Below, in pieces: positions 6,592-31,238 of a stretch of DNA of 31,684 nt (the stretch's first letter is position 1; each line of letters begins with the position of its first letter). The DNA is from Candidatus Caldarchaeales archaeon (GTDB lineage: Archaea; Thermoproteota; Nitrososphaeria_A; Caldarchaeales; Calditenuaceae). The stretch covers positions 1 to 31,684 of the forward strand of contig JAVVGN010000015.1 of NCBI GenBank assembly GCA_032249095.1. Reading direction: 5' to 3'. Position numbers and translations under genes: made by a program. Below the pieces are notes generated by a model. That model saw nothing but the letters and a program-made list of their open reading frames with translations, was not told the origin of the DNA and made no database searches.

Positions 6592-6621
6592 AGAGTTAAT
6601 TTCGGCGCCGAAATTAACTCT
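6592..6621. promoter_or_regulatory. perfect 30-bp palindrome AGAGTTAATTTCGGCGCCGAAATTAACTCT
   Basis: Perfect dyad, 22 nt upstream of the ATG at 6569 and 60 nt downstream of the RHH gene stop. Confidence 0.65.
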
Positions 6622-6680
6622 TGAATTCCGCAACACCTTCTATGCGGTCTAGGATGGGGGCATACTTGGCAACGGATATG

Positions 6681-6983
6681 TTACGGAATTTTTCCGCCAG
6701 AATTTTGGTCGCCCCCAATTTTTAGCTCTTTCTCTAAGTAGTAGGCTAGGGCGATAGCCATCAAGTCCTGCATTGTCATCTGAAGGTCTATGGCGAGGTG
6801 TTTATAGGTCTTGACGATATGGGTGGGTAGGCGAATAGTTATCTTGCTATAGCGAGTTAGGTCTTTCCTTGCCCTTGCTACTGGCTCTTGCTGTTCTCTC
6901 GGCTCTGGTGGGGGCGACGGTTCTCCTACCTGCCCATGTGCCTTGTAGAAGAGTTGCCAAAGTGTTTTTAGTGTCTTGCTCAT
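6681..6983 (-). CDS. ribbon-helix-helix (CopG/Arc-like) DNA-binding protein
   Basis: ITIRLPTHIVKTYKHLAIDLQMTMQDLMAIALAYYL fits the strand-helix-helix pattern of RHH repressors. The N-terminal part is Pro/Glu-rich. Confidence 0.5.
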   Translation of the reverse strand: MSKTLKTLWQLFYKAHGQVGEPSPPPEPREQQEPVARARKDLTRYSKITIRLPTHIVKTYKHLAIDLQMTMQDLMAIALAYYLEKELKIGGDQNSGGKIP

Positions 6984-7013
6984 GGCGTTCCACCGATGTG
7001 ATTTTACCGCAAG

Positions 7014-7580
7014 TTAAAGGTATAGCAATCCTTCCGCCTTTACTATGTTCAGGCACGCCTCAATAGGATTGACGGATATAGGCTGGCGGACGACGGCGGG
7101 TTTGCGTGGCGGCGTGGCAAACCCCCTCTGCGGGAACTCTGTTAAGGTGACCGCCCAAGTCCAAGTTCGTTTGCCCAGCGAGAATTCCAGAGACAGTAAT
7201 TGTTGCTTTGTCCGCCGAGATATGCATCGCCCTTTTCTCGTCCAGACAATGGGCAGTTTCTTCCAAGCTAAGAAAGCGACGAAGTTTTCCAGAACTCGGC
7301 GGAGACGCCTTTCCGTCCACTGAAGCAGTGCCCCGTCGCCCTTCTCCCACTCTTGCGGGCAGACGAATGTCTGTCGCCATCCGAGCCAGAGACGAACCCC
7401 GCCTGCCTCTTCCACGACGAAAAGGGCTTCGTGCCTATCGCCCGCTTGGTTGGAAAGTACCCAGTGACGACCACCATTTATGGAGCGGTATTTCACTTCT
7501 AACCCCCACAGCCGACATATCGGCGCTATTTTGTTCTCTATCATCTCAACGACGGCGTTGTAGTATTCTCGGCTGGTCAC
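7014..7580 (-). CDS. array paralog, subfamily A
   Basis: GTG at 7580 lies 9 nt after AAGGAGGG. Contains IAPICRLWGLEVKY and RTWTWAVTL...NPIEACLNIVKAEGLLYL. The ORF-track extension reads through the 12-mer. Confidence 0.7.
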   Translation of the reverse strand: MTSREYYNAVVEMIENKIAPICRLWGLEVKYRSINGGRHWVLSNQAGDRHEALFVVEEAGGVRLWLGWRQTFVCPQEWEKGDGALLQWTERRLRRVLENFVAFLAWKKLPIVWTRKGRCISRRTKQQLLSLEFSLGKRTWTWAVTLTEFPQRGFATPPRKPAVVRQPISVNPIEACLNIVKAEGLLYL

Positions 7581-7608
7581 CGTATGGTTCCCTCCTTTCG
7601 CCAGAAAC

Positions 7609-7620
7609 ATTATTCGGCAG
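7609..7620 (-). promoter_or_regulatory. conserved 12-mer CTGCCGAATAAT
   Basis: Exact copy, 28 nt upstream of the GTG at 7580. Confidence 0.6.
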
Positions 7621-7650
7621 TGACACCGACTACCGTGGACTATCGTGTGG

Positions 7651-8247
7651 TTAGAGTGCTTGCAAAGCAATTCCCTTCCGAAGCTGGTGGAAGAACTCTA
7701 TGGGGTTTTCTGCCAAATCCCGCTTGAACCGCCCGATGGATTGTTTCGTCAGAAAAGTCTTTACTTCCCACACCCAATTTTTCGTTAACAGGTGAAAGTA
7801 AAGGCGGAAAACCTCGTCGCCTGCCTTAACGAGCAAGTTGGGTCGGTAGCGGACGCTTTTGTTCGTAATGAAAGCCACGACAAGTCTGGCGACAAAGTGC
7901 CTATAGGCAGCTCGAATAAGGTTTTCTGCCGTCGCCTTGTCAGTGTGGTTGTTAAGAAAAACCAAAGTATTTATGACGGACGATGCGTTAATGAAAACTC
8001 TGTCATCTATTGCGCAGCGAACGGGAATGTATGTATAAAGCTCAAGGTAGGCGCTTCTTTGGTTGCCCCACCTTATCTCCCAAAGCTTGCTGACAATCTT
8101 AATTTGGGGCGCTCCTGCGATGGGTTGATAGCTATCTCCTTCCGCTGGCTGTGGTGTCACTTCAAATCCCCACGAGACCAGCAGCGGGAGAAATTCGTCC
8201 TGCCAAATTTGCTTGGCGGTTTCGTAAAGGCAGTCTTTGCTGTTCAT
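7651..8247 (-). CDS. array paralog, subfamily A
   Basis: ATG at 8247. Contains FLPLLVSWGFEV and KNWVWEVKT...LAENPIEFFHQLRKGIALQAL. Confidence 0.75.
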   Translation of the reverse strand: MNSKDCLYETAKQIWQDEFLPLLVSWGFEVTPQPAEGDSYQPIAGAPQIKIVSKLWEIRWGNQRSAYLELYTYIPVRCAIDDRVFINASSVINTLVFLNNHTDKATAENLIRAAYRHFVARLVVAFITNKSVRYRPNLLVKAGDEVFRLYFHLLTKNWVWEVKTFLTKQSIGRFKRDLAENPIEFFHQLRKGIALQAL

Positions 8248-8266
8248 CGCTATCACCCGTCCTGCC

Positions 8267-8278
8267 ATTATTCGGCAG
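8267..8278 (-). promoter_or_regulatory. conserved 12-mer CTGCCGAATAAT
   Basis: Exact copy, 19 nt upstream of the ATG at 8247. Confidence 0.6.
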
Positions 8279-8285
8279 AGTAACC

Positions 8286-8855
8286 CTAAAGCGTCAAAAG
8301 GGAAATGCACCTTCGGATTTTATCCACTAATTCTGGGATGCTTTGGGCGAACACCCGTATCGGTGGATGCCCTTCGGGCTTCAAAAAGATATTCTCTCCA
8401 GTCGCAAAAAACTCAATAGAAACCAATTTCCTTGACGGTGTGATGGCTGCAATTTCTTGAACCCTTTTTGTCCCTTTTATAACATTCGACATTGGGAGAA
8501 TATCCTCCAAAATTAGAGAGACCCTAATCTTTGTAAAGAGCAGTTCCGATGTTACTTCTCTCGCCCTTTCGAAGAAAGCTGCCCAGATATTTCTGATTTC
8601 TGTGGGGGAGAAAACATCGGAAGCGACATCGTTCTCTATAATTATCCTGTCGGCTGGCAGACGGGCGACGACGAAAACCAAATGGTAGCTGTCCTCGTTG
8701 CCATTGTAGAAGGGATATAAGCGCCAGATATGGTAATCTATTTCCCCCTCATTTCGTCGGCTATAGCGGCAGGTAATCCCCCACGCCGAGAGAAATCGGA
8801 CAAATCGCCTGTTGAACAGGTCAACGAGTTGCGAAACTTCAATCCGATAAGGCAT
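8286..8855 (-). CDS. array paralog, subfamily A (divergent C-terminus)
   Basis: ATG at 8855 after GGGAGGCAAAGGTAG. Contains FVRFLSAWGITCRY. C-terminus is ELVDKIRRCISLLTL with a TAG stop. Confidence 0.7.
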   Translation of the reverse strand: MPYRIEVSQLVDLFNRRFVRFLSAWGITCRYSRRNEGEIDYHIWRLYPFYNGNEDSYHLVFVVARLPADRIIIENDVASDVFSPTEIRNIWAAFFERAREVTSELLFTKIRVSLILEDILPMSNVIKGTKRVQEIAAITPSRKLVSIEFFATGENIFLKPEGHPPIRVFAQSIPELVDKIRRCISLLTL

Positions 8856-8873
8856 CTACCTTTGCCTCCCTTT

Positions 8874-8903
8874 GAGAGTTATTTTCGGCGCCGAAATTAA
8901 CCC
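8874..8903. promoter_or_regulatory. 30-bp palindrome, imperfect copy (2 arm mismatches)
   Basis: AGAGTTATTTTCGGCGCCGAAATTAACCCT, 18 nt upstream of the ATG at 8855. Confidence 0.6.
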
Positions 8904-8917
8904 TTTCGCCAGCCTCC

Positions 8918-9511
8918 TTATATCAGAAGGGTCGTCAGGGCTTTTGTGATGATATCGGCAATATCTCCTTCCGAAGGGACATCGGCAACTACATCGTATT
9001 CGTTTTCCCAATGATCAAAACCGTCCATGTAGCGGATGTGGATTTTTCGCAAAGTAAATTTGATAATAACTCTATAGTGGTTTGGTAATACAAGCTGGTT
9101 TTTGCCTAAATGAAGCGCTTTTGGAATGCGGGTTGCCACCATACATGTCAGAAGTTTAGAAGTCAATGAATTCATCTGCCCGTAGAACTGCCGCCAATCG
9201 TCGGCGCTGAACGCACCTTCCTTATCTGGACGGACAATCCACGGGGCGTGGGTGGCGATGTAAATGTACGTCTTATAGAAGTCTTCATCTTTGTCTTTTA
9301 TATCAGCGAAATAAAGACCGTGCTCCGCAGGGGTGGGTGGCGGAACGGTAATTACAAAAGAAGTTCCTTCTATCTGCCCACCAGATTTCCTGATGGCATC
9401 GACGGCGAAGTAGTATTCTAAGCCCGTTTCTTTTACTTGAACTCCCCCCATGCGTTTGAGAATAGGGATGTACTTCTTAGCGACGATATAGGCTAGTTTT
9501 TTCGACAGCAT
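8918..9511 (-). CDS. array paralog, subfamily B (paralog of 4273-4893)
   Basis: ATG at 9511. Contains KKYIPILKRMGGVQV, WRQFYGQMNSLTSKLLTCMVATRIPKA and SEGDIADIITKALTTLLI. Confidence 0.75.
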   Translation of the reverse strand: MLSKKLAYIVAKKYIPILKRMGGVQVKETGLEYYFAVDAIRKSGGQIEGTSFVITVPPPTPAEHGLYFADIKDKDEDFYKTYIYIATHAPWIVRPDKEGAFSADDWRQFYGQMNSLTSKLLTCMVATRIPKALHLGKNQLVLPNHYRVIIKFTLRKIHIRYMDGFDHWENEYDVVADVPSEGDIADIITKALTTLLI

Positions 9512-9573
9512 TGTTGTCGCCCCCTTGCAGTCGTTTGTATCGTGGGAAGGCAGCCTTTGCCGTCCAACGCTGA

Positions 9574-9585
9574 ATTATTCGGCAG
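9574..9585 (-). promoter_or_regulatory. conserved 12-mer CTGCCGAATAAT
   Basis: Exact copy, 62 nt upstream of the ATG at 9511. Confidence 0.55.
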
Positions 9586-9621
9586 GGGTGACGGGTGACC
9601 CTATTGGAAAAGGGGCGTCGG

Positions 9622-10248
9622 TCAGAGGGAGACGGCAACGACGAGGGCGCGGAAAAGAGTTTGGTATGCGTCAAAGGGGTTTTCTTGAAGGTCTTCCTTG
9701 ATGGTGGCTACATCTTTGAAGATGCCCGTGTCAGTTACCACCTTTGCTTTCCAGACCCAGCACTGCTTATAAAGACGGAAGGACACACTTGTTATGGTGT
9801 TACCTATCTTGCTGTAGAAGGTAAGCGTGTGTTGGGCGGGGTTTTGGCAGATTTTCCCTACGGCGAAGCGGGCGATAGAAGTGCGAAATGCCTTTCGTGC
9901 TAGCTCTGGTAGTTGTTCAATGTGATACAGAAAGGGGTCTCCGTAAATATACACTCTTTCTTCATCCGCCTCGCTGCTCCAAAAAGTTACTCTGAGGAGC
10001 TTCCCGAAATCGATGCTAGTGGTTTTTCTAAGGACACTGCTGTAGTCGCTCTTGTAGCAGATACTAAGGTGGACTGTCTCCTTGCCGTCAGAGATGACCC
10101 ACCCGCTCTCTTGGAATGCCCCGCCGTCCCCAAACCGCCCGCACCTCTCGACGGGGTATTGGTTGACGGAAATCCCCCACTTTTCCAGCAAGGGGGCGAA
10201 CTCCTGCTGCCAAATTTGGCAAATCGTGTAGTAATCTTCCAATTGCAT
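9622..10248 (-). CDS. array paralog, subfamily A
   Basis: ATG at 10248 after GGAGGTGCACAGCG. Contains FAPLLEKWGISV and QCWVWKAKV...LQENPFDAYQTLFRALVVAVSL. Confidence 0.75.
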   Translation of the reverse strand: MQLEDYYTICQIWQQEFAPLLEKWGISVNQYPVERCGRFGDGGAFQESGWVISDGKETVHLSICYKSDYSSVLRKTTSIDFGKLLRVTFWSSEADEERVYIYGDPFLYHIEQLPELARKAFRTSIARFAVGKICQNPAQHTLTFYSKIGNTITSVSFRLYKQCWVWKAKVVTDTGIFKDVATIKEDLQENPFDAYQTLFRALVVAVSL

Positions 10249-10270
10249 CGCTGTGCACCTCCGCCGTCGG

Positions 10271-10282
10271 ATTATTCGGCGG
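10271..10282 (-). promoter_or_regulatory. 12-mer variant CCGCCGAATAAT
   Basis: One mismatch to the consensus, 22 nt upstream of the ATG at 10248. Confidence 0.5.
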
Positions 10283-10295
10283 GCGATAATAGATT

Positions 10296-10605
10296 AAAAA
10301 ACGCCCACCGCCCCACGGAGGTCACCTACCGTCGGCTAAAGCCGACGGCTTGCCCTTGCGCTGATGAGCGCAGGGCTTCCGCCCCAAAGGGCGCCCGCCT
10401 ACCTTCGGCGGTTAGGTTTCCTGCCGCCGACCTCGGCGGGGGGGCTGGGTGACAGTGATGTCGGGTCACCCCCGACCAGCCCACTGCCCTACCAACCGCT
10501 GGGTTGGTAAGACAGCATAAGTTACCCTCCCCAGGTCTCTGTGGACGCACATGGCACGCCGACGGAAGACGGGGCGGTGGGCGGCGATGGGACGCCGTGC
10601 GTCGG
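10296..10605 (-). ncRNA. candidate structured RNA or complex terminator (class unknown)
   Basis: GC-rich segment with no credible coding frame. Contains many local hairpins, for example 10329-10348, 10353-10375, 10423-10438 and 10490-10509. A 13-bp exact long-range complement (10302-10314 with 10571-10583) is followed on the minus strand by a T6 run (10296-10301). Confidence 0.3.
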
Positions 10606-10654
10606 TCGGGAGCGATTACCTTGGCACCGTCTTTAATATTTTACCTGAAACGAC

Positions 10655-11542: not shown

Positions 11543-12958
11543 TTAGTCGGCGACTTCAACGACTTTTGCCCAACTGGGCATCTTGTCTTTGCTTTCGTGC
11601 TTTTCCCCAATGAGGCAGATGATGAGCGGTAGGGGTGTTGGGTCTTCAGGGAATGGTGAGTAGCCGTCGGTCAGGACGACGATGGCGTTGTAGCGCCTTC
11701 GCCGCCTTTCCTGTAAGGCTCGGTTGATGCCTTCTACCATATCCGTCCCGCCACGCCCGACAATTTCCCTGACCTGCGAAAACGACTTAACATCACGGAC
11801 GATTTTGTGGACGGCGGCATCGCACATGTAGACATCCACTTTGATGTTCGCCTGTCGGGTGATGCCCAGAATTTCCGCAAGCGCCCGCTCAATCTCTGCC
11901 ATAGACATACTTCCGCTTGTGTCAAGGACAGCAGCAACGGCGTCTGCGTCATATTGCACCATTGACGGGATGACGAAGGGATGATAGGCTTCGCCTCGGC
12001 GGTTCGGGTAAAGGAAGGTATAGTCCTCTTTGCCCCTTGCGGCATTCGTCCGTGACTTGCGGATAAGGTGAGCGAGCAATTGACGCCAGTTGATTTTGGG
12101 GTTAAGAATTTGTTCGGCGATTTCCACCAAGTCGGCTGGAACCGTTCCCCTATTTTTGGCGTGCTCCTTGATTTGGCGGGCGGTCTCTTCCATTCGGGCA
12201 CGAATCTGCGCTTCCGATGCGCCCGGCTGGTCTTTATCTTGTGGGTCTAATTCATAGTCCTTCGGTGTGCCAGCGCCACTGCCACCTTCATCCAGCCGTT
12301 GCGGGAGTGTCGGGTATTTGTGCCCCTGCACTAAGATAACCGTGCCACCCGACCCCTTTCCTTGCTTCCATTGCTGCATAAAGGACTCAGGGATGCGCAG
12401 GTAGTACTCTTCAGCGCTCAATCCCTCAGGCAACCCAAGTTTTTGGGGCAAGAAGATGAGTTCCGTCAGTTGCGGGTAGGGGGCAAGGTCAAGATGTTGA
12501 TTGATTTCCAAGTCCGCTGCGATGTTCCATTTCTCGTGGTCGTTAGGCGTGACGCCCATCATCGTCGCCCTGACAGAGTGGCGGCGGAAAAGATGCTCAA
12601 TTTCGTGTCGCAGAATTTCCACCATCAGGTTAATCGGGTAGTCCGAGATAACATCAGAGTCAAGAAACTGTTTGAGACTTTCAGTGGTGATGACCTTCGG
12701 AAATTTCGGGTGAAAGGACAGGACGAAGAAGGGGTTGAAGTAAATCCGTCCCCACTTATCTACTGCAACCGTGTCGCAACCGATGACCTTGACGAAGCGG
12801 AGAAGCCCCGCCAGTGGCGCATAATAGGGATAGCGGGCGAGCTGGCTCGTGCGGAAGCCCCACGCCCGTGCCGCCCGCAGGAGTTCCAGCGCCTTGTCAA
12901 AAGCCAAGTCAAGCACCTCGTCGCTAATCTCAACGACCTTGATTTCTGGCTTTTTCAT
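11543..12958 (-). CDS. Zn-metallopeptidase-like (HExxH) N-domain fused to a VWA domain (DUF2201-like architecture)
   Basis: HEIEH motif in EILRHEIEHLFRRH. MIDAS-type DxSxS in AVLDTSGSMS. Sits immediately downstream of a MoxR-like ATPase, the usual pairing. Confidence 0.75.
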   Translation of the reverse strand: MKKPEIKVVEISDEVLDLAFDKALELLRAARAWGFRTSQLARYPYYAPLAGLLRFVKVIGCDTVAVDKWGRIYFNPFFVLSFHPKFPKVITTESLKQFLDSDVISDYPINLMVEILRHEIEHLFRRHSVRATMMGVTPNDHEKWNIAADLEINQHLDLAPYPQLTELIFLPQKLGLPEGLSAEEYYLRIPESFMQQWKQGKGSGGTVILVQGHKYPTLPQRLDEGGSGAGTPKDYELDPQDKDQPGASEAQIRARMEETARQIKEHAKNRGTVPADLVEIAEQILNPKINWRQLLAHLIRKSRTNAARGKEDYTFLYPNRRGEAYHPFVIPSMVQYDADAVAAVLDTSGSMSMAEIERALAEILGITRQANIKVDVYMCDAAVHKIVRDVKSFSQVREIVGRGGTDMVEGINRALQERRRRRYNAIVVLTDGYSPFPEDPTPLPLIICLIGEKHESKDKMPSWAKVVEVAD

Positions 12959-13004
12959 CGTACTTCCCCCCTTTGTGTTGTTGGACTGTTTTGCCCGCTA
13001 TTTC

Positions 13005-13016
13005 GTTATTCGGCAG
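13005..13016 (-). promoter_or_regulatory. 12-mer variant CTGCCGAATAAC
   Basis: One mismatch to the consensus, 46 nt upstream of the ATG at 12958. Confidence 0.5.
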
Positions 13017-13032
13017 AGCGGAGCGTCGGAAG

Positions 13033-13066
13033 GTGGGGCGGGGCAGGTTCGTCTGCCCCACCCCAC
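13033..13066 (-). terminator. GC-rich hairpin downstream of the AAA+ gene
   Basis: 14-bp stem with one mismatch (GTGGGGCGGGGCAG / CTGCCCCACCCCAC) and a 6-nt loop. No clear U-tract. Confidence 0.3.
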
Positions 13067-13076
13067 GCTTCAGCAT

Positions 13077-15606: not shown

Positions 15607-15727
15607 CTCTCATCGCCTCCGCCCTTAAATTTTATCGCATTAAAAAGTTAAAATCAAAGGCAGGGCTGGTAGCCATCGGGCGGAGAAGGTAAAGGATTTC
15701 ATTAAAATCTCAGTGGAGGTGACAAAA

Positions 15728-16186: not shown

Positions 16187-16285
16187 AGAATAGGTGAATA
16201 GACCTAACGGGCATTTAGGTTAGGCTTGGCGGCACGGCGTGGGCAGGTTGCGTTAGGCGGGCGGAGTTATTCGTTTTCGCACAGG

Positions 16286-16363: not shown

Positions 16364-16373
16364 ATTCCCCTAT

Positions 16374-16964: not shown

Positions 16965-16991
16965 TTTATATCACCTCGCTTCGTGCAAGCT

Positions 16992-18103: not shown

Positions 18104-18115
18104 ATTATTCGGCAG
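18104..18115 (-). promoter_or_regulatory. conserved 12-mer CTGCCGAATAAT
   Basis: Exact copy, 21 nt upstream of the ATG at 18082 and 30 nt downstream of a palindrome copy. Confidence 0.6.
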
Positions 18116-18145: not shown

Positions 18146-18175
18146 AGAGTTAATTTCGGCGCCGAAATTAACTCT
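18146..18175. promoter_or_regulatory. perfect 30-bp palindrome AGAGTTAATTTCGGCGCCGAAATTAACTCT
   Basis: Perfect dyad. The only copy combined with a 12-mer. Confidence 0.65.
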
Positions 18176-24384: not shown

Positions 24385-24835
24385 CCTTATTAACCTCCCT
24401 TGTTTGTATTTGGTCGCATCGGGCAACACCGATACAAGTTACATACCAATGGTCTGGTCTCCAAAAGTCCAAGTTCCCTATTCGGCGTTCATATTCCTCC
24501 CAGCTGTTGAAAAGGCTAGGTAGCCAACTTTCGTCCGTCGCTGCGATGATAGGGATGTAATAGCCGTCTTTGTCTCTTACGGAGAGAACATAGACCTTCT
24601 CAGGCGCTGATGAAGTATCCACCTGTTTATCTTCCAAAGAGCCAAGTATAGATGCTGCCCACCAGTCAAATCGTTCCCTCGTGATGGACTCCCAGTCGGC
24701 GTTATCAACTTGGTCTCGGCTCTCAAAGAGTGGAACGACTTCCCAATCGGTATCCCCGCGTGGCTCAATAGAAGCGATAGTTGGGATGAGGTAGCCGTCG
24801 TCATCAAAGGTTGTATGGACCCACAAGAAGCGCAT
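24365..24835 (-). CDS. hypothetical acidic protein with an internal repeat (156 aa)
   Basis: ATG at 24835 lies 21 nt after the palindrome. Has two similar segments, DDDGYLIPTIASIE and DKDGYYIPIIAATDE. Confidence 0.6.
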   Translation of the reverse strand: MRFLWVHTTFDDDGYLIPTIASIEPRGDTDWEVVPLFESRDQVDNADWESITRERFDWWAASILGSLEDKQVDTSSAPEKVYVLSVRDKDGYYIPIIAATDESWLPSLFNSWEEYERRIGNLDFWRPDHWYVTCIGVARCDQIQTREVNKDAPLIY

Positions 24836-24841
24836 CCCGTT

Positions 24842-25411
24842 TCACCTCGCCTTTTGAGAGTTAATTTCGGCGCCGAAATTAACTCCCCAGCCGACAGCCT
24901 TGTAGGGGATTTCTGCGGGGGTGGTTTTGACGAACATAATTTGGGCGATACCTGCGTAAGGGTAAAGAGAAATATCCCGTGCGGGGTTGAGGTTGACGAC
25001 GGTGAAGACCAGTTGACCGCTAAAACCAGCGTCCACGACGGTCATATTGTATGCTAATCCCTGCCGTGCATAGGTGCTTTTCCCAAACAATAGCCCGACA
25101 AGGTTCGTCGGTAGGCTGAAGGTTTCCAGACTGGCGACTTGGAGGCAATGGTAGGGAGGTAGCGGGAAATTCTCGCCCTCGCCCAGTTCTATTACCTCAA
25201 CATCGCCGTTTTCTAGCTCTACGAGTCCGCCTTGCCGACCCCGAAGTTTAGGGCGAAACCATACGAAGCGGGGGTGCAGGCGGAAAGTATAGCCGTGTGG
25301 GTCTAGCCCGTAACTGATGCCCATCAGTTGACGCTTTTCAGGCACGAAGTCGGTTATGAAATCGGGCTTCTCTGCCACGAGCCGTTTGATTTCTGCGTCG
25401 CTGAGAAACAT
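24842..25411 (-). CDS. dcd: dCTP deaminase/dUTPase-superfamily protein
   Basis: MFLSDAEIKRL, SLETFSLPTNLVGLLFGKSTYARQGL and VVDAGFSGQLVFTVVNLN align by eye with the Dcd motifs ([31 protein letters not shown].N). SD is GGGGTGACCGCCG. Confidence 0.7.
   Translation of the reverse strand: MFLSDAEIKRLVAEKPDFITDFVPEKRQLMGISYGLDPHGYTFRLHPRFVWFRPKLRGRQGGLVELENGDVEVIELGEGENFPLPPYHCLQVASLETFSLPTNLVGLLFGKSTYARQGLAYNMTVVDAGFSGQLVFTVVNLNPARDISLYPYAGIAQIMFVKTTPAEIPYKAVGWGVNFGAEINSQKAR
24857..24886. promoter_or_regulatory. 30-bp palindrome (29/30), embedded in the 3' end of the dcd-like CDS
   Basis: AGAGTTAATTTCGGCGCCGAAATTAACTCC, 21 nt upstream of the ATG at 24835. Encodes ..VNFGAEINS.. of the dcd-like protein. 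Confidence 0.6.
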
Positions 25412-25451: not shown

Positions 25452-26042
25452 TTAAAGGAAAATCTCGGCGGGGAGGGCATCCAGAAGGCGGGCGAAATAC
25501 TCCAATGGGTGGTTATCCGCGCAGTCAAAAGTTCTATGAATGATGTGTGGGGCACATCCATAGGTCAACCGCCACGCATTCTCTTCAATAAGATAGAGGA
25601 AGTTCAGTATTTGTCCGCCAAAGGAAAGATAAATAATTCCGCAGGTGACGGTAGCAAAGAATCCCTTTCTCATGGCTATCCGTCTGCTTTCCTCTGTCAG
25701 GGTCACGAATAGGAAGGTCTCAAGTAGGCGAGCCAAGTCAATTTTGACTTTCTTTGGCAGGCTTTTTCTATTGCGAGGCAAGTCGCTGATAACTACCGCC
25801 CGCTCATTGCACAAAACTTCAATATAGGGCTGGGTCTTGCCGTCGGGTTGGACAAGGCAAGCACAGAGAGCATTGACATGCTGCCCTTCCCACTTTATTG
25901 TCCAGATGACCTCGTTGGGTGTTCGGGCAGATTTGCTCACTTCTATTTTTCGTTGGCGCCAAGTCTCCGCCGTCTCGTCAATAAAATTTACGACGCTGCT
26001 GAAAAACTCCGCCCACATTTGCGCTGGGGTTAGCTTGGGCAT
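25452..26042 (-). CDS. array paralog, subfamily D (paralog of 1746-2333)
   Basis: ATG at 26042 after AAGGGGTGAGCAAAGCG, the same SD layout as 1746-2333. Contains TPNEVIWTIKWEGQHVNALCACLVQ, TLTEESRRIAMRKGFFATV and NHPLEYFARLLDALPAEIFL. Confidence 0.75.
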   Translation of the reverse strand: MPKLTPAQMWAEFFSSVVNFIDETAETWRQRKIEVSKSARTPNEVIWTIKWEGQHVNALCACLVQPDGKTQPYIEVLCNERAVVISDLPRNRKSLPKKVKIDLARLLETFLFVTLTEESRRIAMRKGFFATVTCGIIYLSFGGQILNFLYLIEENAWRLTYGCAPHIIHRTFDCADNHPLEYFARLLDALPAEIFL

Positions 26043-26064: not shown

Positions 26065-26766
26065 TCAAAAGGATGCCAAGGCAATGACCTTAAGTGCTTT
26101 AGCGACGGCTTGGCTGTGTCCGCCGACAAACTCGTAGAGTTCTCCCCCGTTAGCTATCATACATACTGCATTCCGCCGTCCGAAGAGGATGGTGAAAGAA
26201 GGCGCCTGGTCAGGTGCATAGCTCCTAGCTATGACGACCGCAATGTAATTTAGTGGGTCGTGGCGCCAACAGCCACAGAGCCCCACCCACCCCCTATAAA
26301 GGTCGGTAACCTTTGCAGCCAGCGCCTTTGCAGCTAAAACTATCGGAAGGGGTAAGTTTAATGGGGGGTGTTGTATAAGGGAAGTTCCCACCTTGCTGTA
26401 TCCGACAATCCAGCTTTCGGATGGCAAACTAAACAGGTAAACGACGCTCCCCAGGGGGCATACTACCGTCTGGTGCTGCAAGGAGATATAGGCGAGACAT
26501 TCGTCGGTGCGCTTAATGCCGATGGCGTAAAAGTACGTTTCCTCAAGGCCGATGGCGTAAAAGTACGCTTCCTCAAGGATGAAATCTGCTTTTGGGTATG
26601 GTAGGGTAATGATAGTTGTCGGACAATTAACCCCCCACTTCCTTAGGATTTGGTTGGTTTTGTAGATTATTTTGTTGACACCAAGCTCCTTGATCCACCG
26701 CATCCTCTCCCCGTTGTGAAGGTGATGGGTTGTTTTGACATGACCTCTCTTAGGCATCTTGGTCAC
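26065..26766 (-). CDS. array paralog, subfamily A (divergent), carrying a 10-aa tandem duplication
   Basis: Contains NQILRKWGVNC. C-terminus is AVAKALKVIALASF. Start is ambiguous: GTG at 26766, ATG at 26757, or an internal ATG. Confidence 0.6.
   Translation of the reverse strand: MTKMPKRGHVKTTHHLHNGERMRWIKELGVNKIIYKTNQILRKWGVNCPTTIITLPYPKADFILEEAYFYAIGLEETYFYAIGIKRTDECLAYISLQHQTVVCPLGSVVYLFSLPSESWIVGYSKVGTSLIQHPPLNLPLPIVLAAKALAAKVTDLYRGWVGLCGCWRHDPLNYIAVVIARSYAPDQAPSFTILFGRRNAVCMIANGGELYEFVGGHSQAVAKALKVIALASF
26518..26577 (-). repeat. 30-bp in-frame tandem duplication (2 copies, 1 mismatch)
   Basis: Copies are 26518-26547 and 26548-26577 (GCCGATGGCGTAAAAGTACGYTTCCTCAAG), differing only at 26538/26568. 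They encode EEAYFYAIGL and EETYFYAIGI. Confidence 0.9.
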
Positions 26767-26771: not shown

Positions 26772-26801
26772 AAAGTTAATTTCGGCGCCGAAATTAACTC
26801 T
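26772..26801. promoter_or_regulatory. 30-bp palindrome (29/30)
   Basis: AAAGTTAATTTCGGCGCCGAAATTAACTCT, 5-14 nt upstream of the candidate starts of 26065-26766. Confidence 0.6.
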
Positions 26802-26882: not shown

Positions 26883-27077
26883 CAACTCGTGCATACTGTT
26901 TAGGCTTGCGCCACCAGCAACTCATGCTTCCCTTATAGGCTTGCCTTGTCGACAACTCGTGCGCTTATGCCTACAAAATGCCGTCCCTCCAACTCGTGCA
27001 GAATGCGCTACTTCTCTATCGCCCCCCAATCAACTCGTGCATTGACTTAAACTTCGGTGCGGCTTCAACAACTCGTG
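26883..27077. repeat. iteron-like array: six direct copies of CAACTCGTGC
   Basis: Copies start at 26883, 26918 (CAACTCATGC), 26953, 26990, 27031 and 27068. Spacing is 35-41 bp. The array is non-coding, between 27119-27991 and the palindrome at 26772. Confidence 0.75.
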
Positions 27078-27118
27078 CCTTACCGCAAATTCAGCCGTCA
27101 GCGCCTTGCGCTCAATTT

Positions 27119-27991
27119 CTAAGGGATGGTGTGTTGCTTCATTCGTTCCACGATGCCTTTTACGAAGGTGGCTACTTTTTCGTCTTCTTCGTCTTGCAGC
27201 ATATTTTCTACCTCTTGGATAGCCCGCAGGACTTGTGGGAGTGCCTTTCTGGGGTGCATCATCATTTCGGGCGGGATTTTGGTGGCGTGCCCCAAGTGTA
27301 TCACGGGATAGATTTCCACGACTGGCAGACCTTGAGTTTTTCGGGCGACTTCCCACAGGTGGGTGACAAAGATATTCGCTGCCTTGACTATCGCTGCGAA
27401 ATGACAGTGCCCTTTCGTCCAATCGGGATGGTCTTGCTGATACTTCTCTTTATAGCTGGCATAAAGTTCCGCCAGTAGGTTAGGCGAGCGCTTGTAGACG
27501 AGAAGCGACTGCTTGACGATAAGGTAGAGGACACTTTTCGCTTTAGGGTTGTAGGGGCGAACTTTACCTGGCTCGGCTTTCACGATTTTACCTGTGCGGG
27601 GGTCGGGAGCGACACCGCAGTGTTTGGCAAGGCAGGACGGATAAACCCTCGCAGCGGGGTTTCCGATATAACCAAGCAACCTACCAAAAAGGTGCTTGCC
27701 GACTCCTGGGATGAAGGCTGCCCACTGCTTCCATTCGGGAAGGTCTGAGACGATGCGGGCGATTTCCCCTTCCGCCCGCTCTCGTGTGGCGAGGGCAGCC
27801 CCCGCATCTGCTAGAAGAAGGTCTCTGCACTTTGATGCCGCCTCCTTCAGAAGGGGGGACTGTTCAAAGCGCCGTAACGACTGAAGACGCTTTAGGGCAT
27901 CGTCCCACAGCCTTACCCACATCCCCAGCTCGTTGTAAGGCGGCATCCATAGTCGCTCTTTGTCCACTCGCAGTTCGGTTTTGAACGACAT
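27119..27991 (-). CDS. protein with an IS110-family C-terminal (Transposase_20-like) domain and no DEDD/RuvC-like N-domain
   Basis: FIPGVGKHLFGRLLGYIGNPAARVYPSCLAKHCGVAPDPRTGKIV...YNPKAKSVLYLIVKQS matches the IPGIG....L.A.IGD...F.....LA.Y.GL.P....SG pattern. The N-terminal 90 aa look coiled-coil with no GIDxxK-type motif. ATG at 27991 follows GGGAGG. Confidence 0.5.
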   Translation of the reverse strand: MSFKTELRVDKERLWMPPYNELGMWVRLWDDALKRLQSLRRFEQSPLLKEAASKCRDLLLADAGAALATRERAEGEIARIVSDLPEWKQWAAFIPGVGKHLFGRLLGYIGNPAARVYPSCLAKHCGVAPDPRTGKIVKAEPGKVRPYNPKAKSVLYLIVKQSLLVYKRSPNLLAELYASYKEKYQQDHPDWTKGHCHFAAIVKAANIFVTHLWEVARKTQGLPVVEIYPVIHLGHATKIPPEMMMHPRKALPQVLRAIQEVENMLQDEEDEKVATFVKGIVERMKQHTIP

Positions 27992-28673: not shown

Positions 28674-28782
28674 GGGCAGCCCCCATCTGTCGCAGGCGGG
28701 ACAGCATCAAAGCAAGCCGCCGGCTGGAGCCGATGGCAGTTCCTTCTCTCGTAGGTAATGCTGGCGGAAGTCTTAAGGGCTC

Positions 28783-29364: not shown

Positions 29365-29385
29365 TACGATCACCTCCGCCCGCTA

Positions 29386-29397
29386 ATTATTCGGCAG
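29386..29397 (-). promoter_or_regulatory. conserved 12-mer CTGCCGAATAAT
   Basis: Exact copy, 21 nt upstream of the GTG at 29364. It starts 1 nt after the TAG stop of the methylase gene. Confidence 0.6.
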
Positions 29398-29398
29398 A

Positions 29399-30277
29399 CT
29401 ACACTATTGGCGGGGTGATGGGCTTAGGAGCTTCCTCATTAGCCTCAGTGTAATTTAACCATAAAGCATCTTTGACCTTAGCACCTTCAGACCCCTTCCC
29501 AATGGCGGAAGTGTTCCGATAGGCGACCTCTATTACTTTCCAGCCATTCAGCATTTCGTCGTAAAGTGGACATTTTGGATGGGTAATTAAAACCTTACCC
29601 TTTACCTGCTGAAGTGCCGCTAACAACTCCCGATGTTGTTCGTCTGTCATTTGAAAAAGGTAGTTTTTAGGTGTGCTAAGCGTTTCTGGTAGGTAGGGCG
29701 GGTCAATAAAAAAGAAAGTGTTGGATGTATCATAGCGGCGGATGACATTGATGGCATCGTCACATTCAATTACGACATTCCGCAAGCGCAGGTGAAATCG
29801 CTCAAACTCTGCAATGGTATTTCTAAACGCCCGTAAGGTTACCCCCTTGTTGGCTTTGGGGAACGACCAAGCGGGGTTGGCAATAGCAGCGGAAAAACTT
29901 TGGCGATTGAAGACATAAAACGCCCACGCCAACTCCAAAAGTTCGTCATCGTTAAATTCATCAAGACTGCGAGGGTTTCCAAGATGCCGCTTCAACTTCT
30001 CCCTCACAGAGTAAAACTCCGCTCTACTGTAGGGGGTTAGCTCGCAAAGTTCCTGAAGGCGTTGCCAAAGGCGCTCGTCTCGCAGGCAGCGGTAGAATGC
30101 GACAATGCGAAAGTCAATATCGTTTAGGATTTCCAGCGGGGACGGTTCTTTTGCCCAAAAGAGAGCCGCCCCGCCTGCAAAGGGTTCACAATAGACCTCA
30201 TGTGGCGGGATTAACTGAAGGAGCAACTTCGTCAAATAGTGCTTTCCGCCATAGGACTTGATTGGCTGCCCACTCAA
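29399..30277 (-). CDS. dam: N6-adenine DNA methyltransferase (D12/Dam class)
   Basis: SAM-binding FAGGAALF and catalytic FFFIDPPYLPE (DPPY). N-terminal SYGGKHYL. TTG start lies 7 nt after GGGAGTGA. Confidence 0.85.
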   Translation of the reverse strand: MSGQPIKSYGGKHYLTKLLLQLIPPHEVYCEPFAGGAALFWAKEPSPLEILNDIDFRIVAFYRCLRDERLWQRLQELCELTPYSRAEFYSVREKLKRHLGNPRSLDEFNDDELLELAWAFYVFNRQSFSAAIANPAWSFPKANKGVTLRAFRNTIAEFERFHLRLRNVVIECDDAINVIRRYDTSNTFFFIDPPYLPETLSTPKNYLFQMTDEQHRELLAALQQVKGKVLITHPKCPLYDEMLNGWKVIEVAYRNTSAIGKGSEGAKVKDALWLNYTEANEEAPKPITPPIV

Positions 30278-30412
30278 AGAAAAATCACTCCCAGATTCTT
30301 TTTGTAACTGTCATAACTAGTCGTTACATTATCATGAGTAGGGGTCGCAACCCCCACTCTTGTACCAGGCCGCTTCTTTGGCACGGTACATTCCCCTCCC
30401 AAAGATGGTCAG

Positions 30413-30916
30413 TTAGCAAGTTTCGGTGCTATCAAAAGTATCCGTGAAGAAGGTTTTGCATTTGGGGCATCTAAGCACTCTTTTCTGTGTCTGTTCAAGT
30501 TCCTGTAGCTTAGGCTTGACTCGTAAGCGTATTGCCGCCCCCAACTTGCCCCAGAAACGCCACGAGAGGCGTTTCCGATACTCCCTGTCGTGGAGGGCGT
30601 GCCAAATGGTTGATTTGTCATATCCCGTCATCTCTGCCAAGTCTGCTAAGGACACACCCGCCTTTTCCATCCATTCTGCAATGCCCTTAGGAAGCGCCTT
30701 AGCACCCTTTGATGCGGTTTTCTTTCTCGTCGCCTTCTTCTTTTTTCCTGCGGGTGCGGGTCTGCGCTTTTGCCTCTTGCTGACTTCGGTTGCCATCGGT
30801 TCTGGTTTTGGCTGGGGCGCTTCCTCGCTCGGCTTTTCGTCCCTTTGCTCTCGTGGGGCTAAGACGGAAAGCACTCGGCTCTTGATATTTTCCCAGAGTA
30901 AACGCCAACTTTTCAT
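30413..30916 (-). CDS. HTH DNA-binding protein with a Lys-rich basic linker and a C-terminal CxxC
   Basis: AGVSLADLAEMTGYDKSTIWHAL is a typical helix-turn-helix. Basic tract KRQKRRPAPAGKKKKATRKK. ATG at 30916 follows GGAGGGACGATGCA. Confidence 0.5.
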   Translation of the reverse strand: MKSWRLLWENIKSRVLSVLAPREQRDEKPSEEAPQPKPEPMATEVSKRQKRRPAPAGKKKKATRKKTASKGAKALPKGIAEWMEKAGVSLADLAEMTGYDKSTIWHALHDREYRKRLSWRFWGKLGAAIRLRVKPKLQELEQTQKRVLRCPKCKTFFTDTFDSTETC

Positions 30917-30936
30917 TGCATCGTCCCTCCTTCTAA

Positions 30937-31191
30937 TTATATTTCAACCTTAATTTGGGCGAGGACAACCCGCCCAACGGACTTGACGATAACTTCCCCA
31001 CCACCTGCTTCCTGCGCCATTTTGACGGCGTGGTCAAATGCCCTATCAGCGTACTGCTGAATTGGGCTGACGGTCATTAAGACGATTGTCTTTCCGTCCT
31101 TGTCCACGACATCAATGTATTCCGCTTCGCTCCTTACCGATTCCCACGCCTTCCGCCAGCGGATTGGGAAAGAGTGGCGCTGTCGGCGCAT
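30937..31191 (-). CDS. small hypothetical protein (84 aa)
   Basis: ATG at 31191 after AAAGGGGTGTTTGACAA. A degenerate palindrome lies 17 nt upstream. Confidence 0.55.
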   Translation of the reverse strand: MRRQRHSFPIRWRKAWESVRSEAEYIDVVDKDGKTIVLMTVSPIQQYADRAFDHAVKMAQEAGGGEVIVKSVGRVVLAQIKVEI

Positions 31192-31208
31192 TTGTCAAAC
31201 ACCCCTTT

Positions 31209-31238
31209 CAAGGTTATTTTCGGCGTCGAAATTATACC
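31209..31238. promoter_or_regulatory. degenerate copy of the 30-bp palindrome
   Basis: AAGGTTATTTTCGGCGTCGAAATTATACCT. The core TTTCGGCG(T/C)CGAAATTA is retained and the outer arms have diverged. Confidence 0.4.

What the first reader, a model, noticed from the sequence alone, without database searches (positions are those of the whole stretch)
6592..31238. Six copies of a 30-bp (near-)perfect palindrome occupying the same upstream position as the 12-mer
AGAGTTAATTTCGGCGCCGAAATTAACTCT is a perfect dyad at 6592-6621 and 18146-18175. It is 29/30 at 24857-24886 and 26772-26801, 28/30 at 8874-8903, and degenerate at 31209-31238. Five copies end 5-22 nt before a start codon, immediately ahead of the SD, in gaps that lack the 12-mer. 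A dyad this long and this conserved is typical of an operator for a dimeric repressor. If transcribed it would form a 13-15 bp hairpin abutting the SD, acting as a translational or RNase III control element or as a terminator of the upstream unit. Candidate binders are encoded in the window. The RHH protein (6681-6983) stops 60 nt upstream of the 6592 copy, and there are also the HTH protein (30413-30916) and the Xis-like protein (20320-20583). The copy at 24857 is embedded in the last 15 codons of the dcd-like gene, so the palindrome is maintained even inside coding sequence.
Basis: partly seen in the sequence, partly recalled or inferred. Interest (0 to 1): 0.7.

Follow-up and report, generated by a model that had tools for sequence, protein, structure and literature searches.

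The report
Phage-wide 30-bp boundary palindrome repeat
The 30-bp palindrome is real and is a multi-copy repeat found only in phages and related mobile elements of the hot-spring bacterium Fervidibacter, where it marks gene ends and cassette junctions, so it looks more like a REP-type repeat than a classical promoter operator.

Summary
There are five strong copies: perfect at 6592 and 18146, 1 mismatch at 24857 and 26772, and 2 mismatches at 8875, not 8874. The degenerate copy is at 31210, and a seventh decayed copy lies at 3745. None is expected by chance.

All genes lie on the minus strand. Each copy sits between a stop codon and the next Shine-Dalgarno sequence (SD).

The 22-nt core is absent from 185,579 reference genomes and from IMG/VR. 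It occurs in 90 hot-spring metagenome loci, at about 37 distinct sites. These loci encode portal, capsid, DNA polymerase, ribonucleotide reductase and primase genes. CRISPR spacers assign the host to Candidatus Fervidibacter, and one spacer is the palindrome itself.

Across the family, the element:
- abuts or overlaps upstream stop codons;
- lies between convergent genes, with no robust divergent case;
- follows tRNA genes;
- precedes the 12-mer at 1-64 nt.

It shows presence/absence and cassette junctions at its edges. One copy is inserted in frame in a primase gene, flanked by 13-nt direct repeats.

It has no U-tract, and its A/U-rich stem is barely stable at the host's growth temperature.

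Best reading, with confidence about 0.4: a REP/PeSL-like boundary palindrome. The main rival is a stoperator-like site for the window's Xre-type HTH protein. No function has been shown experimentally.

The parts
6592..6621 (.). Perfect copy of the palindrome AGAGTTAATTTCGGCGCCGAAATTAACTCT. On the minus strand it lies 59 nt after the stop of ORF 6681-6983 and 22 nt before the ATG of ORF 5973-6569.
   Evidence: Orthologous copies in L006, L029 and L043. L006 carries a 550-nt insertion about 10 nt upstream of it, and the upstream sequence differs in L029/L043.
8875..8904 (.). Copy with 2 mismatches. On the sense strand one is a G.U pair and one an A.A mismatch. It lies 13 nt after a stop codon and 19 nt before the ATG of ORF 8286-8855.
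   Evidence: The same two deviations are kept in L006 and L053. The hairpin is not the predicted MFE structure here.
8864..8871 (-). AGGGAGGC, the working SD of ORF 8286-8855. It is the downstream member of a duplicated SD-like motif that flanks the 8875 copy.
   Evidence: In L006 the flanking repeat is 9 nt, GGGGAGGCA.
8912..8919 (-). AAGGAGGC, the upstream member of the duplicated SD-like motif, overlapping the stop codon of ORF 8918-9511. Read here as a footprint of insertion.
18146..18175 (.). Perfect copy, 81 nt after a stop codon. It is followed 30 nt later by the 12-mer, then SD and the ATG of ORF 17492-18082.
   Evidence: Identical in L039, L040 and L053.
18104..18115 (-). 12-mer CTGCCGAATAAT (promoter-like), downstream partner of the 18146 copy.
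24857..24886 (.). Copy with 1 mismatch, inside the last codons of the dCTP-deaminase-like ORF 24842-25411. It encodes GVNFGAEINS and ends 21 nt before the ATG of ORF 24365-24835.
26772..26801 (.). Copy with 1 mismatch, 14 nt before the ATG of ORF 26065-26757, at the end of a 361-nt non-coding stretch. It is absent from the orthologous site in L046.
31210..31239 (.). Decayed copy (23/30), 33 nt downstream of tRNA-Val. Its left arm supplies the TATAAT of a sigma-70-like promoter. Its right arm is deleted in the relative L042.
31231..31260 (-). Sigma-70-like promoter TTGACT-18-TATAAT (11/12 match), upstream of the operon 30937-31191 plus the HTH gene 30413-30916. Fully conserved in L042.
3745..3774 (.). 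Seventh, decayed copy with a 1-nt deletion. It overlaps the stop of ORF 3772-4227 and is followed by a G+C-rich hairpin and the 12-mer at 3669-3680. L043 lacks the cassette made of this ORF plus the left part of this copy, and the junction lies inside the right arm.
30413..30916 (-). Xre/Cro-type HTH protein, the best candidate binder if the palindrome is a protein site. Binding is not shown.
6681..6983 (-). Probable ribbon-helix-helix protein, second candidate binder. Binding is not shown.

Best explanation
The palindrome is a REP- or PeSL-like boundary repeat of Fervidibacter phages and related mobile elements. It is a short element, capable of forming a hairpin, that has spread to about one site per 4-5 kb by insertion and recombination.

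It persists where it does no harm: just after stop codons, between convergent genes, after tRNA genes, and ahead of the next promoter-like 12-mer.

In cis it punctuates transcription units in either orientation, as an attenuator or 3'-end hairpin, or as a site for a sequence-specific factor. It also gives short identical linkers at which gene cassettes are gained, lost and swapped.

Shown here: the copies, their specificity to these elements, their positions, the insertion and indel footprints, and the symmetry-preserving variation.

Inferred: that it is mobile, that it acts on transcripts, and that a sequence-specific enzyme or protein recognises it. That factor has not been identified.
For: Specificity
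- 90 metagenome loci carry the 22-nt core. There are none in IMG/VR or in 185,579 genomes. IMG/VR hits to the 16-nt core are chance matches.
- The loci encode portal, major capsid, DNA polymerase A, ribonucleotide reductase, ThyX and primase proteins.
- Host link: a CRISPR array with 80 or more repeats has the palindrome as one spacer. The same repeat occurs in Fervidibacter MAGs, and other spacers hit the window and related loci.

Position
- About 37 distinct sites.
- With both neighbours confidently called: 15 co-directional, 5 convergent, 0 divergent.
- Distance to the upstream stop is between -8 and +7 nt at 11 sites. At three of them the TAA inside AGAGTTAA is itself the stop codon.
- It lies downstream of tRNA genes.
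- It precedes the 12-mer at 1-64 nt in 11 site clusters.

Insertion and turnover
- A variant sits in frame in the linker of a primase-helicase gene. It is flanked by the 13-nt direct repeat CAAAACGGTCACG and is absent from homologues.
- A duplicated SD flanks the 8875 site.
- Flanking direct repeats of 7 nt or more: 10 observed against about 2.5 expected.
- The element is absent at the 26772 site in L046.
- A gene cassette has its junction inside the arm of the 3745 copy.
- A 550-nt insertion lies next to the 6592 copy.
- The copies at 31210 and 3745 are decaying.
- A relative with four 12-mers has no palindrome in 12 kb.
- A second family, PAL2, occupies the same stop-codon-abutting position in another relative.

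Symmetry
- Pair 8-23 is A-T in 16 distinct sequences and T-A in 8. The covariation score is 0.114 against 0.076 in shuffles (1 of 500 shuffles reach it).

Closest described systems
- PeSL cassettes (PMC2839356, PMC4122927) and the Cluster O 17-bp repeats (PMC4351075).
Against: - No mobilising enzyme, such as a RAYT or other HUH enzyme, was found. The only recombinase nearby is an IS110-like protein at 27119-27991, and nothing links it to the repeat.
- The flanking direct repeats vary in length (7-13 nt) and in offset, unlike the duplications made by a transposase.
- The centre (positions 9-22) is invariant. A simple structural element does not need that.
- There is no sense-strand preference for G.U over A.C (9 against 9). 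The hairpin is only -2 to -3.6 kcal/mol at 75-80 C. There is no U-tract. So an unaided RNA role is doubtful.
- The phage has separate canonical terminators with a G+C-rich stem and a T-run.
- Gene calls in the loci come from an ad hoc hexamer model trained on the window.
- Loci were collected by an exact 22-mer, which inflates apparent conservation of the core.
Confidence: 0.4

Rival explanations
1. It is a double-stranded DNA site for a dimeric phage regulator, with the Xre-type HTH 30413-30916 as best candidate and the RHH 6681-6983 as second. It would work like a palindromic version of the mycobacteriophage stoperators. The bound protein would block or insulate transcription between units, and the 31210 copy would be the autoregulatory operator of the regulator's own operon.
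For: - Perfect conservation of a 24-nt dyad, including its centre.
- A+T-rich arms around a G+C core, and marginal hairpin stability at 75-80 C.
- No wobble bias specific to RNA.
- The 8875 copy keeps an A.A mismatch in three orthologues and is not predicted to fold as the hairpin.
- The HTH fold is nearest to SinR, C-proteins and DdrO, which bind dyads.
- Of 49 window proteins, only the HTH and RHH have homologues in the G+C-richer palindrome-bearing elements.
- A palindrome of this class lies upstream of the operon that encodes the HTH in three lineages: the window (the decayed copy overlapping the -10 of TTGACT-18-TATAAT), L044 and L114 (PAL2).
- Stoperator precedent: PMC9283540.
Against: - Most copies are at gene 3' ends or convergent junctions, not at promoters.
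- Spacing to the 12-mer varies from 1 to 64 nt.
- At 31210 the relative L042 keeps the promoter but has lost the right arm.
- L115 encodes the HTH (59% identity) but has no palindrome in 12 kb.
- The in-frame insertion with flanking repeats, and the presence/absence polymorphism, are not expected of operators.
- There are no prophage copies in host MAGs, so a lysogeny-type global repressor is not indicated.
- Other phage loci share at least six more protein families with the G+C-richer elements, which weakens the co-occurrence argument.
Confidence: 0.3
2. It is a factor-independent bidirectional transcription terminator or attenuator. In this reading it is the stem-loop half of a terminator-promoter cassette whose promoter half is the 12-mer.
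For: - Location at gene 3' ends and convergent junctions, after tRNA genes and before the 12-mer.
- The hairpin is the dominant predicted fold at four window copies, with z from -2.2 to -4.0.
- The stem-loops of PeSL cassettes terminate transcription (PMC2839356).
Against: - No U-tract after any copy.
- Only 4 G-C pairs among 13, and -2 to -3.6 kcal/mol at 75-80 C, while F. sacchari grows at 65-87.5 C (PMC11535203).
- The same phages use canonical G+C-rich hairpins with T-runs, for example after the capsid gene at L080:3202-3235.
- Five window copies are followed directly by SD and ATG with no promoter, so efficient termination would silence those genes.
- Identical sequence at all sites is not needed for termination.
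Confidence: 0.12
3. It is an RNA processing or stability site. A sequence-specific or double-strand-specific endoribonuclease, of RNase III type or phage-encoded, would cut polycistronic transcripts at the hairpin. That would leave protective 3' hairpins upstream and defined 5' ends just ahead of the SD.
For: - Inter-cistronic position 14-22 nt before the ATG, and just after stop codons and tRNAs.
- An invariant apical part with covarying lower stem pairs fits a hairpin recognised by a protein.
- Precedents, from my own knowledge: T7 and SP82 RNase III sites.
Against: - The 13-15 bp stem is shorter than typical RNase III substrates and does not extend into the flanks.
- No G.U tolerance on the sense strand.
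- Weak stability at host temperature.
- No nuclease was identified.
Confidence: 0.1

Closest known systems
PeSL cassettes (promoter-early stem-loop) of T4-type phages (PMC2839356, PMC4122927)
   Same: - Short conserved intergenic motifs in ORFan-rich regions.
- A stem-loop paired with a conserved promoter-like motif next to the SD.
- Indels and gene replacements between close relatives have their junctions at the motifs.
   Different: - The PeSL promoter is sigma-70-like, and the stem-loop is G/C-rich and variable in sequence. Here the stem-loop is a nearly invariant A/T-rich 30-mer.
- The promoter partner (the 12-mer) is present at only about a third of sites.
- This palindrome also occurs in the structural and replication regions.
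- Terminator activity has not been tested here.
Bacterial REP/BIME extragenic palindromes
   Same: - Many near-identical 20-40-nt palindromes.
- Extragenic, at gene 3' ends and between convergent genes, and rare in divergent promoter regions.
- Copies decay and show presence/absence.
   Different: - Found only in phages and mobile elements, with none in the host chromosome.
- A perfect dyad with no asymmetric head such as GTAG.
- No RAYT-type enzyme was found.
- Occasional in-frame copies inside genes.
17-bp dyad repeats of Cluster O mycobacteriophages (PMC4351075)
   Same: More than 30 copies per phage genome of an invariant inverted repeat, spread through the genome and mostly intergenic, with function unknown.
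   Different: - 7-bp arms with a variable 3-bp centre, against 13-15-bp arms with an invariant centre here.
- One third of the Cluster O sites lie within genes.
- No reported bias towards stop codons.
Stoperators of Cluster A mycobacteriophages (PMC9283540)
   Same: Dozens of copies of one conserved site in short intergenic gaps across a phage genome. They would act on transcription elongation rather than at promoters.
   Different: - Stoperators are 13-bp, asymmetric, oriented with transcription and bound by a monomeric immunity repressor of a temperate phage.
- Here the site is a 30-bp perfect dyad, no binder is shown, and lysogeny is not indicated.

Membership tests
Classical operator of a dimeric repressor | Dyad-symmetric site | tested here: met
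   30-bp dyad; positions 9-22 invariant in 29 distinct variants.
Classical operator of a dimeric repressor | Fixed position overlapping or adjoining a promoter | tested here: not met
   No -35 element upstream of any copy except 31210. Spacing to the 12-mer is 1-64 nt and the palindrome lies upstream of it. Copies sit at convergent junctions.
Classical operator of a dimeric repressor | Cognate DNA-binding protein that binds the site | not testable with these tools
   Candidates exist: an Xre-type HTH and a weak RHH. Binding needs EMSA or footprinting.
Intrinsic (Rho-independent) terminator | G+C-rich stem followed by a U-tract | tested here: not met
   4 G-C pairs among 13. No T-run after any copy on either strand. 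The terminator scan does not list the copies.
Intrinsic (Rho-independent) terminator | Location at the 3' end of transcription units | tested here: met
REP/BIME-type extragenic palindrome | Many near-identical palindromic copies, extragenic, biased to 3' ends and convergent junctions | tested here: met
   About 37 sites; 15 co-directional, 5 convergent, 0 divergent. One possible divergent site, the L012/L038 cluster.
REP/BIME-type extragenic palindrome | Associated RAYT (Y1/HUH) enzyme | tested here: inconclusive
   It did not appear among the 25 commonest Pfam families of 150 locus proteins, but the list was truncated at 25 of 73. The phage genome is incomplete.
REP/BIME-type extragenic palindrome | Resident in the host chromosome | tested here: not met
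   0 matches in 185,579 genomes, including Fervidibacter MAGs.
PeSL cassette | Conserved promoter plus stem-loop in one intergenic cassette next to the SD | tested here: inconclusive
   The order palindrome, 12-mer, SD occurs in 11 site clusters, but most copies lack the 12-mer. Promoter activity of the 12-mer is not shown.
PeSL cassette | Indel and replacement junctions between relatives coincide with the motif | tested here: met
   L006 insertion, L043 cassette, L046 absence, synteny breaks at palindromes and 12-mers.
Stoperator | Asymmetric site oriented with transcription | tested here: not met
   Perfect dyad.
RNase III processing site (T7/SP82 type) | Duplex of about two helical turns, often with an internal loop | tested here: not met
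   13-15 bp only, with no extension into the flanks.
MITE | Target-site duplication of fixed length | tested here: inconclusive
   Flanking direct repeats are in excess (10 against 2.5 expected), but they are 7-13 nt long and at variable offsets.

The most novel reading that the evidence does not exclude
The palindrome would be a virus-borne counterpart of bacterial REP elements. A hairpin-specific enzyme, not yet identified, would copy it to new sites, including in frame within genes. It would be shared between a large Fervidibacter phage and a smaller satellite-like element carrying Xis/AlpA-like and primase-helicase genes. It would serve as the common linker for cassette exchange among them. 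It is abundant enough that the host's CRISPR system has taken it as a multi-copy target.
Probability: 0.25. Interest if true: 0.7.

Novelty: new variant of a known kind. Interest (0 to 1): 0.5.

Why it matters
Phages of Fervidibacter, a hyperthermophile that grows at 65-87.5 C, appear undescribed. The two library searches on Fervidibacter found no paper describing them, and the isolation paper does not mention viruses or CRISPR.

This repeat, together with the 12-mer, gives a compact handle on how their genomes are divided into units and how gene cassettes move.

If the repeat is mobile, it extends REP-type biology to viruses. If it is a protein site, it is a palindromic counterpart of stoperators in an organism living near 80 C.

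In either case it is a usable marker for finding this phage group in metagenomes. It also links phage and host directly, because the repeat itself is a CRISPR spacer.

Tried and rejected
- **Host REP:** rejected. No hits in genome contigs.
- **Known phage:** no megablast match among 50,697 phage records. No IMG/VR relative by DNA or by the DUF2201 protein.
- **Known RNA family:** only two tRNAs in Rfam.
- **Sigma-70 promoter inside the palindrome:** no -35 element at 16-18 nt from GTTAAT at any copy except 31210.
- **Phage RNA polymerase whose promoter or terminator this could be:** motif searches found only one FDGD, in a 1,298-aa protein with no Pfam match and no sign of a polymerase.
- **RNA-level wobble test:** 9 G.U against 9 A.C on the sense strand, so uninformative or negative.
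- **Conservation of core against flanks:** 0.026 against 0.194 differences per site. Not used as evidence of selection, because the loci were collected by an exact 22-mer.
- **Similarity of the 12-mer to the palindrome arm:** they share GCCGAA and then TAA. The chance of a shared 6-mer is about 0.04 (my own rough calculation, not a tool result), so this is noted but not relied on.
- **Link between the six GCA(C/T)GAGTTG repeats and the palindrome arm:** they share only GAGTT, which is not significant.
- **Xis-like label for 20320-20583:** no Pfam or PDB support, and weak coding score.

Full report
**1. Observation**

A search for the 30-mer with up to 3 mismatches finds five copies. None is found in 100 dinucleotide shuffles.
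- 6592-6621 and 18146-18175 are perfect.
- 24857-24886 and 26772-26801 have one mismatch.
- 8875-8904 has two.

A looser search and the repeat finder add the degenerate copy at 31210-31239 (23/30). They also add a seventh, decayed copy at 3745-3774 with a 1-nt deletion.

Essentially all genes in the window are on the minus strand. On that strand the palindrome always lies between a stop codon and the next SD.

The gap from palindrome to ATG is 14-22 nt at five copies, and these gaps have no 12-mer. At 18146 and 3745 the palindrome is followed by CTGCCGAATAAT, then SD and ATG. The 12-mer has 17 copies, all on the coding strand.

The 24857 copy lies within the C-terminal tail of a dCTP-deaminase-like ORF. 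It encodes GVNFGAEINS, codons 176-185 of 189, beyond the Pfam domain.

**2. What the window is, and where else the palindrome occurs**

The window matches no deposited phage. The 22-nt core is absent from IMG/VR and from one genome of each of 185,579 species. It occurs in 90 metagenome loci.

About ten of these loci are syntenic with the window at 82-90% identity. One lineage (L042/L068) is at about 74%. The rest share only the palindrome.

Those other loci encode a portal protein, an SU10-type major capsid protein, DNA polymerase A, a primase-helicase, DnaB, ribonucleotide reductase, ThyX, RNA ligase and methyltransferases. So the window is part of a large phage whose whole genome carries the repeat.

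Clustering by flanking sequence gives about 37 distinct sites.

A subset of loci with higher G+C (0.55-0.57, against about 0.50) carries an Xis/AlpA-like gene and a primase-helicase gene. One of these loci also holds host-like cell-envelope genes. They look like a distantly related integrative or satellite-like element.

*Host.* Locus L088 is a CRISPR array with 80 or more identical repeats, and one spacer is the palindrome with its flanks. The same repeat occurs only in Candidatus Fervidibacter MAGs. Other spacers match the window (12045-12070) and related loci, and one contains the 12-mer.

Sample names such as GBSCSSed77C point to Great Boiling Spring. F. sacchari grows at 65-87.5 C (PMC11535203).

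**3. Anatomy across the family**

I called genes in the loci with a hexamer coding model trained on the window. This is an ad hoc method and carries that caveat.

With both neighbours called at a score of 20 or more, there are 15 co-directional sites, 5 convergent and 0 divergent. Two further convergent sites are supported by homology:
- tRNA, then palindrome, then ribonucleotide reductase on the opposite strand;
- an RHH-like gene, then palindrome, then an AAA_25 gene on the opposite strand.

There is one possible divergent site, upstream of the Xis/AlpA-like gene.

Relative to confidently called genes, the palindrome lies from -8 to +7 nt from the upstream stop at 11 sites. At three of them the TAA inside AGAGTTAA is itself the stop codon. 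It never comes closer than 14 nt to a start codon.

Where a 12-mer is near, the order is palindrome then 12-mer in 11 site clusters, at 1-64 nt. The reverse order occurs in 2. No sigma-70 -35 element accompanies any copy except 31210.

**4. Sequence variation**

Positions 9-22 (TTTCGGCGCCGAAA) are invariant in 29 distinct variants. Variation is confined to the outer stem.

Pair 8-23 is A-T in 16 variants, T-A in 8 and unpaired in 5. Pairs 2-29 and 3-28 also switch between A-T and G-C. The covariation score is 0.114 against 0.076 in shuffles, and 1 of 500 shuffles reaches it.

This fits selection for pairing. It could equally reflect two sub-families that were each copied.

With orientation fixed by the 12-mer and gene calls, G.U and A.C mismatches on the sense strand are equal, 9 each. 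So there is no signature of an RNA-level constraint.

The RNA hairpin is -15 kcal/mol at 37 C but only -3.6 to -2.1 at 75-80 C. In context it is the dominant predicted fold at 6592, 18146, 24857 and 26772. It is not at 8875, 3745 or 31210. No copy is followed by a T-run.

The same phages have canonical terminators with a G+C-rich stem and a T-run. One follows the major capsid gene (L080:3202-3235), 18 nt from a palindrome that closes the convergent gene. Another lies upstream of the 12-mer at about 10300 in the window.

**5. Turnover and insertion footprints**

1. In L038 a variant (GGAGTTATTTTCGGCGCCGAAAATAACCCC) sits in frame in the linker between the Prim-Pol and D5_N domains of a 921-aa primase-helicase. 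It is extended to a 42-nt palindrome and flanked by the 13-nt direct repeat CAAAACGGTCACG. Homologues have a gap at that position.
2. The 8875 site is flanked by a duplicated SD. This is AAGGAGGC and AGGGAGGC in the window, and the 9-nt GGGGAGGCA in L006. Without the insert, the junction would be a standard stop-SD-ATG arrangement.
3. Flanking direct repeats of 7 nt or more are in excess, 10 observed against about 2.5 expected among 90 flank pairs. Their length and offset vary.
4. L046 lacks the palindrome at the 26772 site.
5. L043 lacks the cassette made of ORF 3772-4227 plus the left part of the 3745 copy. The junction is AATA|ACTTTGC, inside the right arm.
6. L006 has a 550-nt insertion about 10 nt from the 6592 copy, and L029/L043 differ upstream of it.
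7. At 31210 both the window and L042 carry decayed versions. L042 has lost the right arm. Both keep TTGACT-18-TATAAT exactly, and its -10 lies in the left arm. What is conserved there is the promoter, not the dyad.
8. L115 is a relative with the DUF2201 gene, the 200-aa paralogues, the HTH gene (59% identity) and four 12-mers. It has no palindrome in 12 kb.
9. L114 is another relative. It has neither the palindrome nor the 12-mer. It has a second family, PAL2 (GATTGAATTTAT-NCGN-ATAAATTCAATC), at two sites. Both overlap or abut the upstream stop codon. PAL2 also lies 30 nt downstream of the palindrome in L044, L001, L013 and L014.

**6. Candidate binding proteins**

- **Xis-like ORF (20320-20583).** Pfam and PDB give no support for the Xis-like label.
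- **RHH ORF (6681-6983).** It has an RHH-like pattern and a weak CopG-family match, E=0.006.
- **HTH ORF (30413-30916).** It has a sub-threshold HTH_31 hit. Only 13 homologues exist among 5.8 billion proteins. The model is confident for residues about 79-145. Its nearest folds are the Xre-type dyad binders SinR, C-proteins, DdrO and ClgR, though the Foldseek E-values are weak, 0.04-0.3.

Of 49 window proteins, only the RHH and HTH have homologues in the G+C-richer elements. Other phage loci share at least six more families with those elements, so this co-occurrence carries less weight.

A palindrome of this class lies upstream of the operon encoding the HTH in three lineages. At one copy per 4-5 kb, this is only modest evidence.

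**7. Explanation**

The evidence places the element at the ends of genes and units, in either orientation. It is not at promoters. Its copies are gained, lost and decayed, and cassette junctions fall at its edges.

I therefore read it as a REP/PeSL-like boundary palindrome, with confidence about 0.4. It spreads by insertion or recombination and is tolerated at gene ends. It acts in cis as punctuation and as a recombination linker, and some factor still unidentified recognises it.

The main rival, at about 0.3, is a duplex site for the Xre-type HTH acting as a palindromic stoperator. In its favour are the invariant centre, the A/T-rich arms, the weak hairpin at 80 C and the absence of an RNA wobble bias. 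Against it are the positions, the loss of the dyad at 31210 in L042, L115, and the insertion footprints.

A plain intrinsic terminator (about 0.12) fails on the U-tract, on stem composition and on the five copies that sit directly before genes with no promoter. An RNase III-type site (about 0.1) fails on stem length. These readings are not fully exclusive of one another.

**8. Comparison and novelty**

The closest described systems are these:
- PeSL cassettes of T4-type phages (PMC2839356, PMC4122927);
- bacterial REP elements;
- the unexplained 17-bp dyad repeats of Cluster O mycobacteriophages (PMC4351075);
- stoperators (PMC9283540).

The element meets the distributional features of REP and PeSL. 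It lacks a RAYT enzyme, host residence and a sigma-70 promoter partner. It fails the defining features of operators, intrinsic terminators, stoperators and RNase III sites.

I rate it a new variant of a known kind, with interest 0.5.

**9. Limits**

- The gene calls in the loci are home-made.
- Sites are not fully independent.
- Loci were ascertained by an exact 22-mer.
- The phage genome is incomplete.
- No transcript or binding data exist.

Noticed in passing
window, 17 sites on the minus strand (e.g. 1665-1676, 8267-8278, 18104-18115, 29386-29397): The 12-mer CTGCCGAATAAT occurs 17 times, always on the coding strand and about 17-62 nt before an ATG in most cases. It is also present in the relative L115, which lacks the palindrome. 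It shares GCCGAA and then TAA with the palindrome arm. It is probably a phage-specific promoter element, but that is untested.
   Followed up: partly
L088:1-5336: A host CRISPR array with 80 or more repeats (GTTTCCATCCCCTCAAGGCGGGTCGGAGAC). The spacer between the repeats at about 1932 and 1998 is the palindrome. The repeat is found only in Candidatus Fervidibacter MAGs, and other spacers hit window 12045-12070 and related loci.
   Followed up: yes
L070:2017-3211 (also L007, L054, L074, L085): Next to the portal gene the phage carries 18 degenerate copies of a ~31-nt repeat, CTTTCCACCTTACCCATATTGTCGCGAAAT, mostly 66 nt apart. This could be a CRISPR-like or iteron-like array. One spacer-sized interval is the palindrome, and another copy lies just before the array.
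   Followed up: no
window 26892-27078 (minus strand): Six copies of GCA(C/T)GAGTTG at 35-41-nt spacing fill the non-coding stretch between the IS110-like gene and the 26772 palindrome. The array length differs in L046.
   Followed up: partly
window 27119-27991 (minus strand): A 290-aa protein homologous to the C-terminal domain of IS110-family transposases (PDB 9mty, E=1.7e-11; PHROG 4285, E=5e-17). It lacks a full DEDD domain. It is conserved in L046 and L058.
   Followed up: partly
window 1033-10248, 14460-20193, 25452-26042: At least four families of very divergent ~190-215-aa paralogues (19-33% identity), with no Pfam or PHROG match, make up much of the window. L115 has similar ~200-aa genes.
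   Followed up: partly
window 10260-10654; also 721-743, 10327-10349, 28721-28739; L053:~9700-9860: A ~400-nt G+C-rich, highly structured non-coding region that ends in a T-run before a 12-mer. The hairpin GCCGTCGGCT-N-AGCCGACGGC recurs at three window sites. It also occurs inside a 160-nt structured insertion that L053 carries between the SD and ATG of the 18082 gene.
   Followed up: no
window 31231-31260 (minus strand): A near-consensus sigma-70 promoter, TTGACT-18-TATAAT, downstream of tRNA-Val. It is identical in the 74%-identity relative L042 and drives the operon that ends with the HTH gene.
   Followed up: yes
L114:617-640 and 5145-5172; L044:9662-9681; L001, L013, L014: A second palindrome family, PAL2 (GAATTTAT-NCGN-ATAAATTC core), is found in related elements. 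It again starts at or within the upstream stop codon.
   Followed up: partly
L109-L113 (Great Boiling Spring contigs): The most distant homologue of the window's HTH protein sits in a three-gene cassette of HTH, ParA-like ATPase and RHH. This looks like a partition module. No palindrome was found in these short contigs.
   Followed up: no
window 11543-14324 (minus strand): A MoxR-type AAA ATPase (13077-14324) lies next to a DUF2201 metallopeptidase/VWA protein (11543-12958). The pair is conserved in L042, L053, L068 and L115.
   Followed up: no
window 15728-16186 (plus strand); 16286-16363 and 31273-31348 (minus strand): The only well-scoring plus-strand ORF in the window (152 aa, no family match). 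It lies in a 767-nt gap in the minus-strand gene calls that also holds tRNA-Arg. tRNA-Val is the second tRNA in the window.
   Followed up: no
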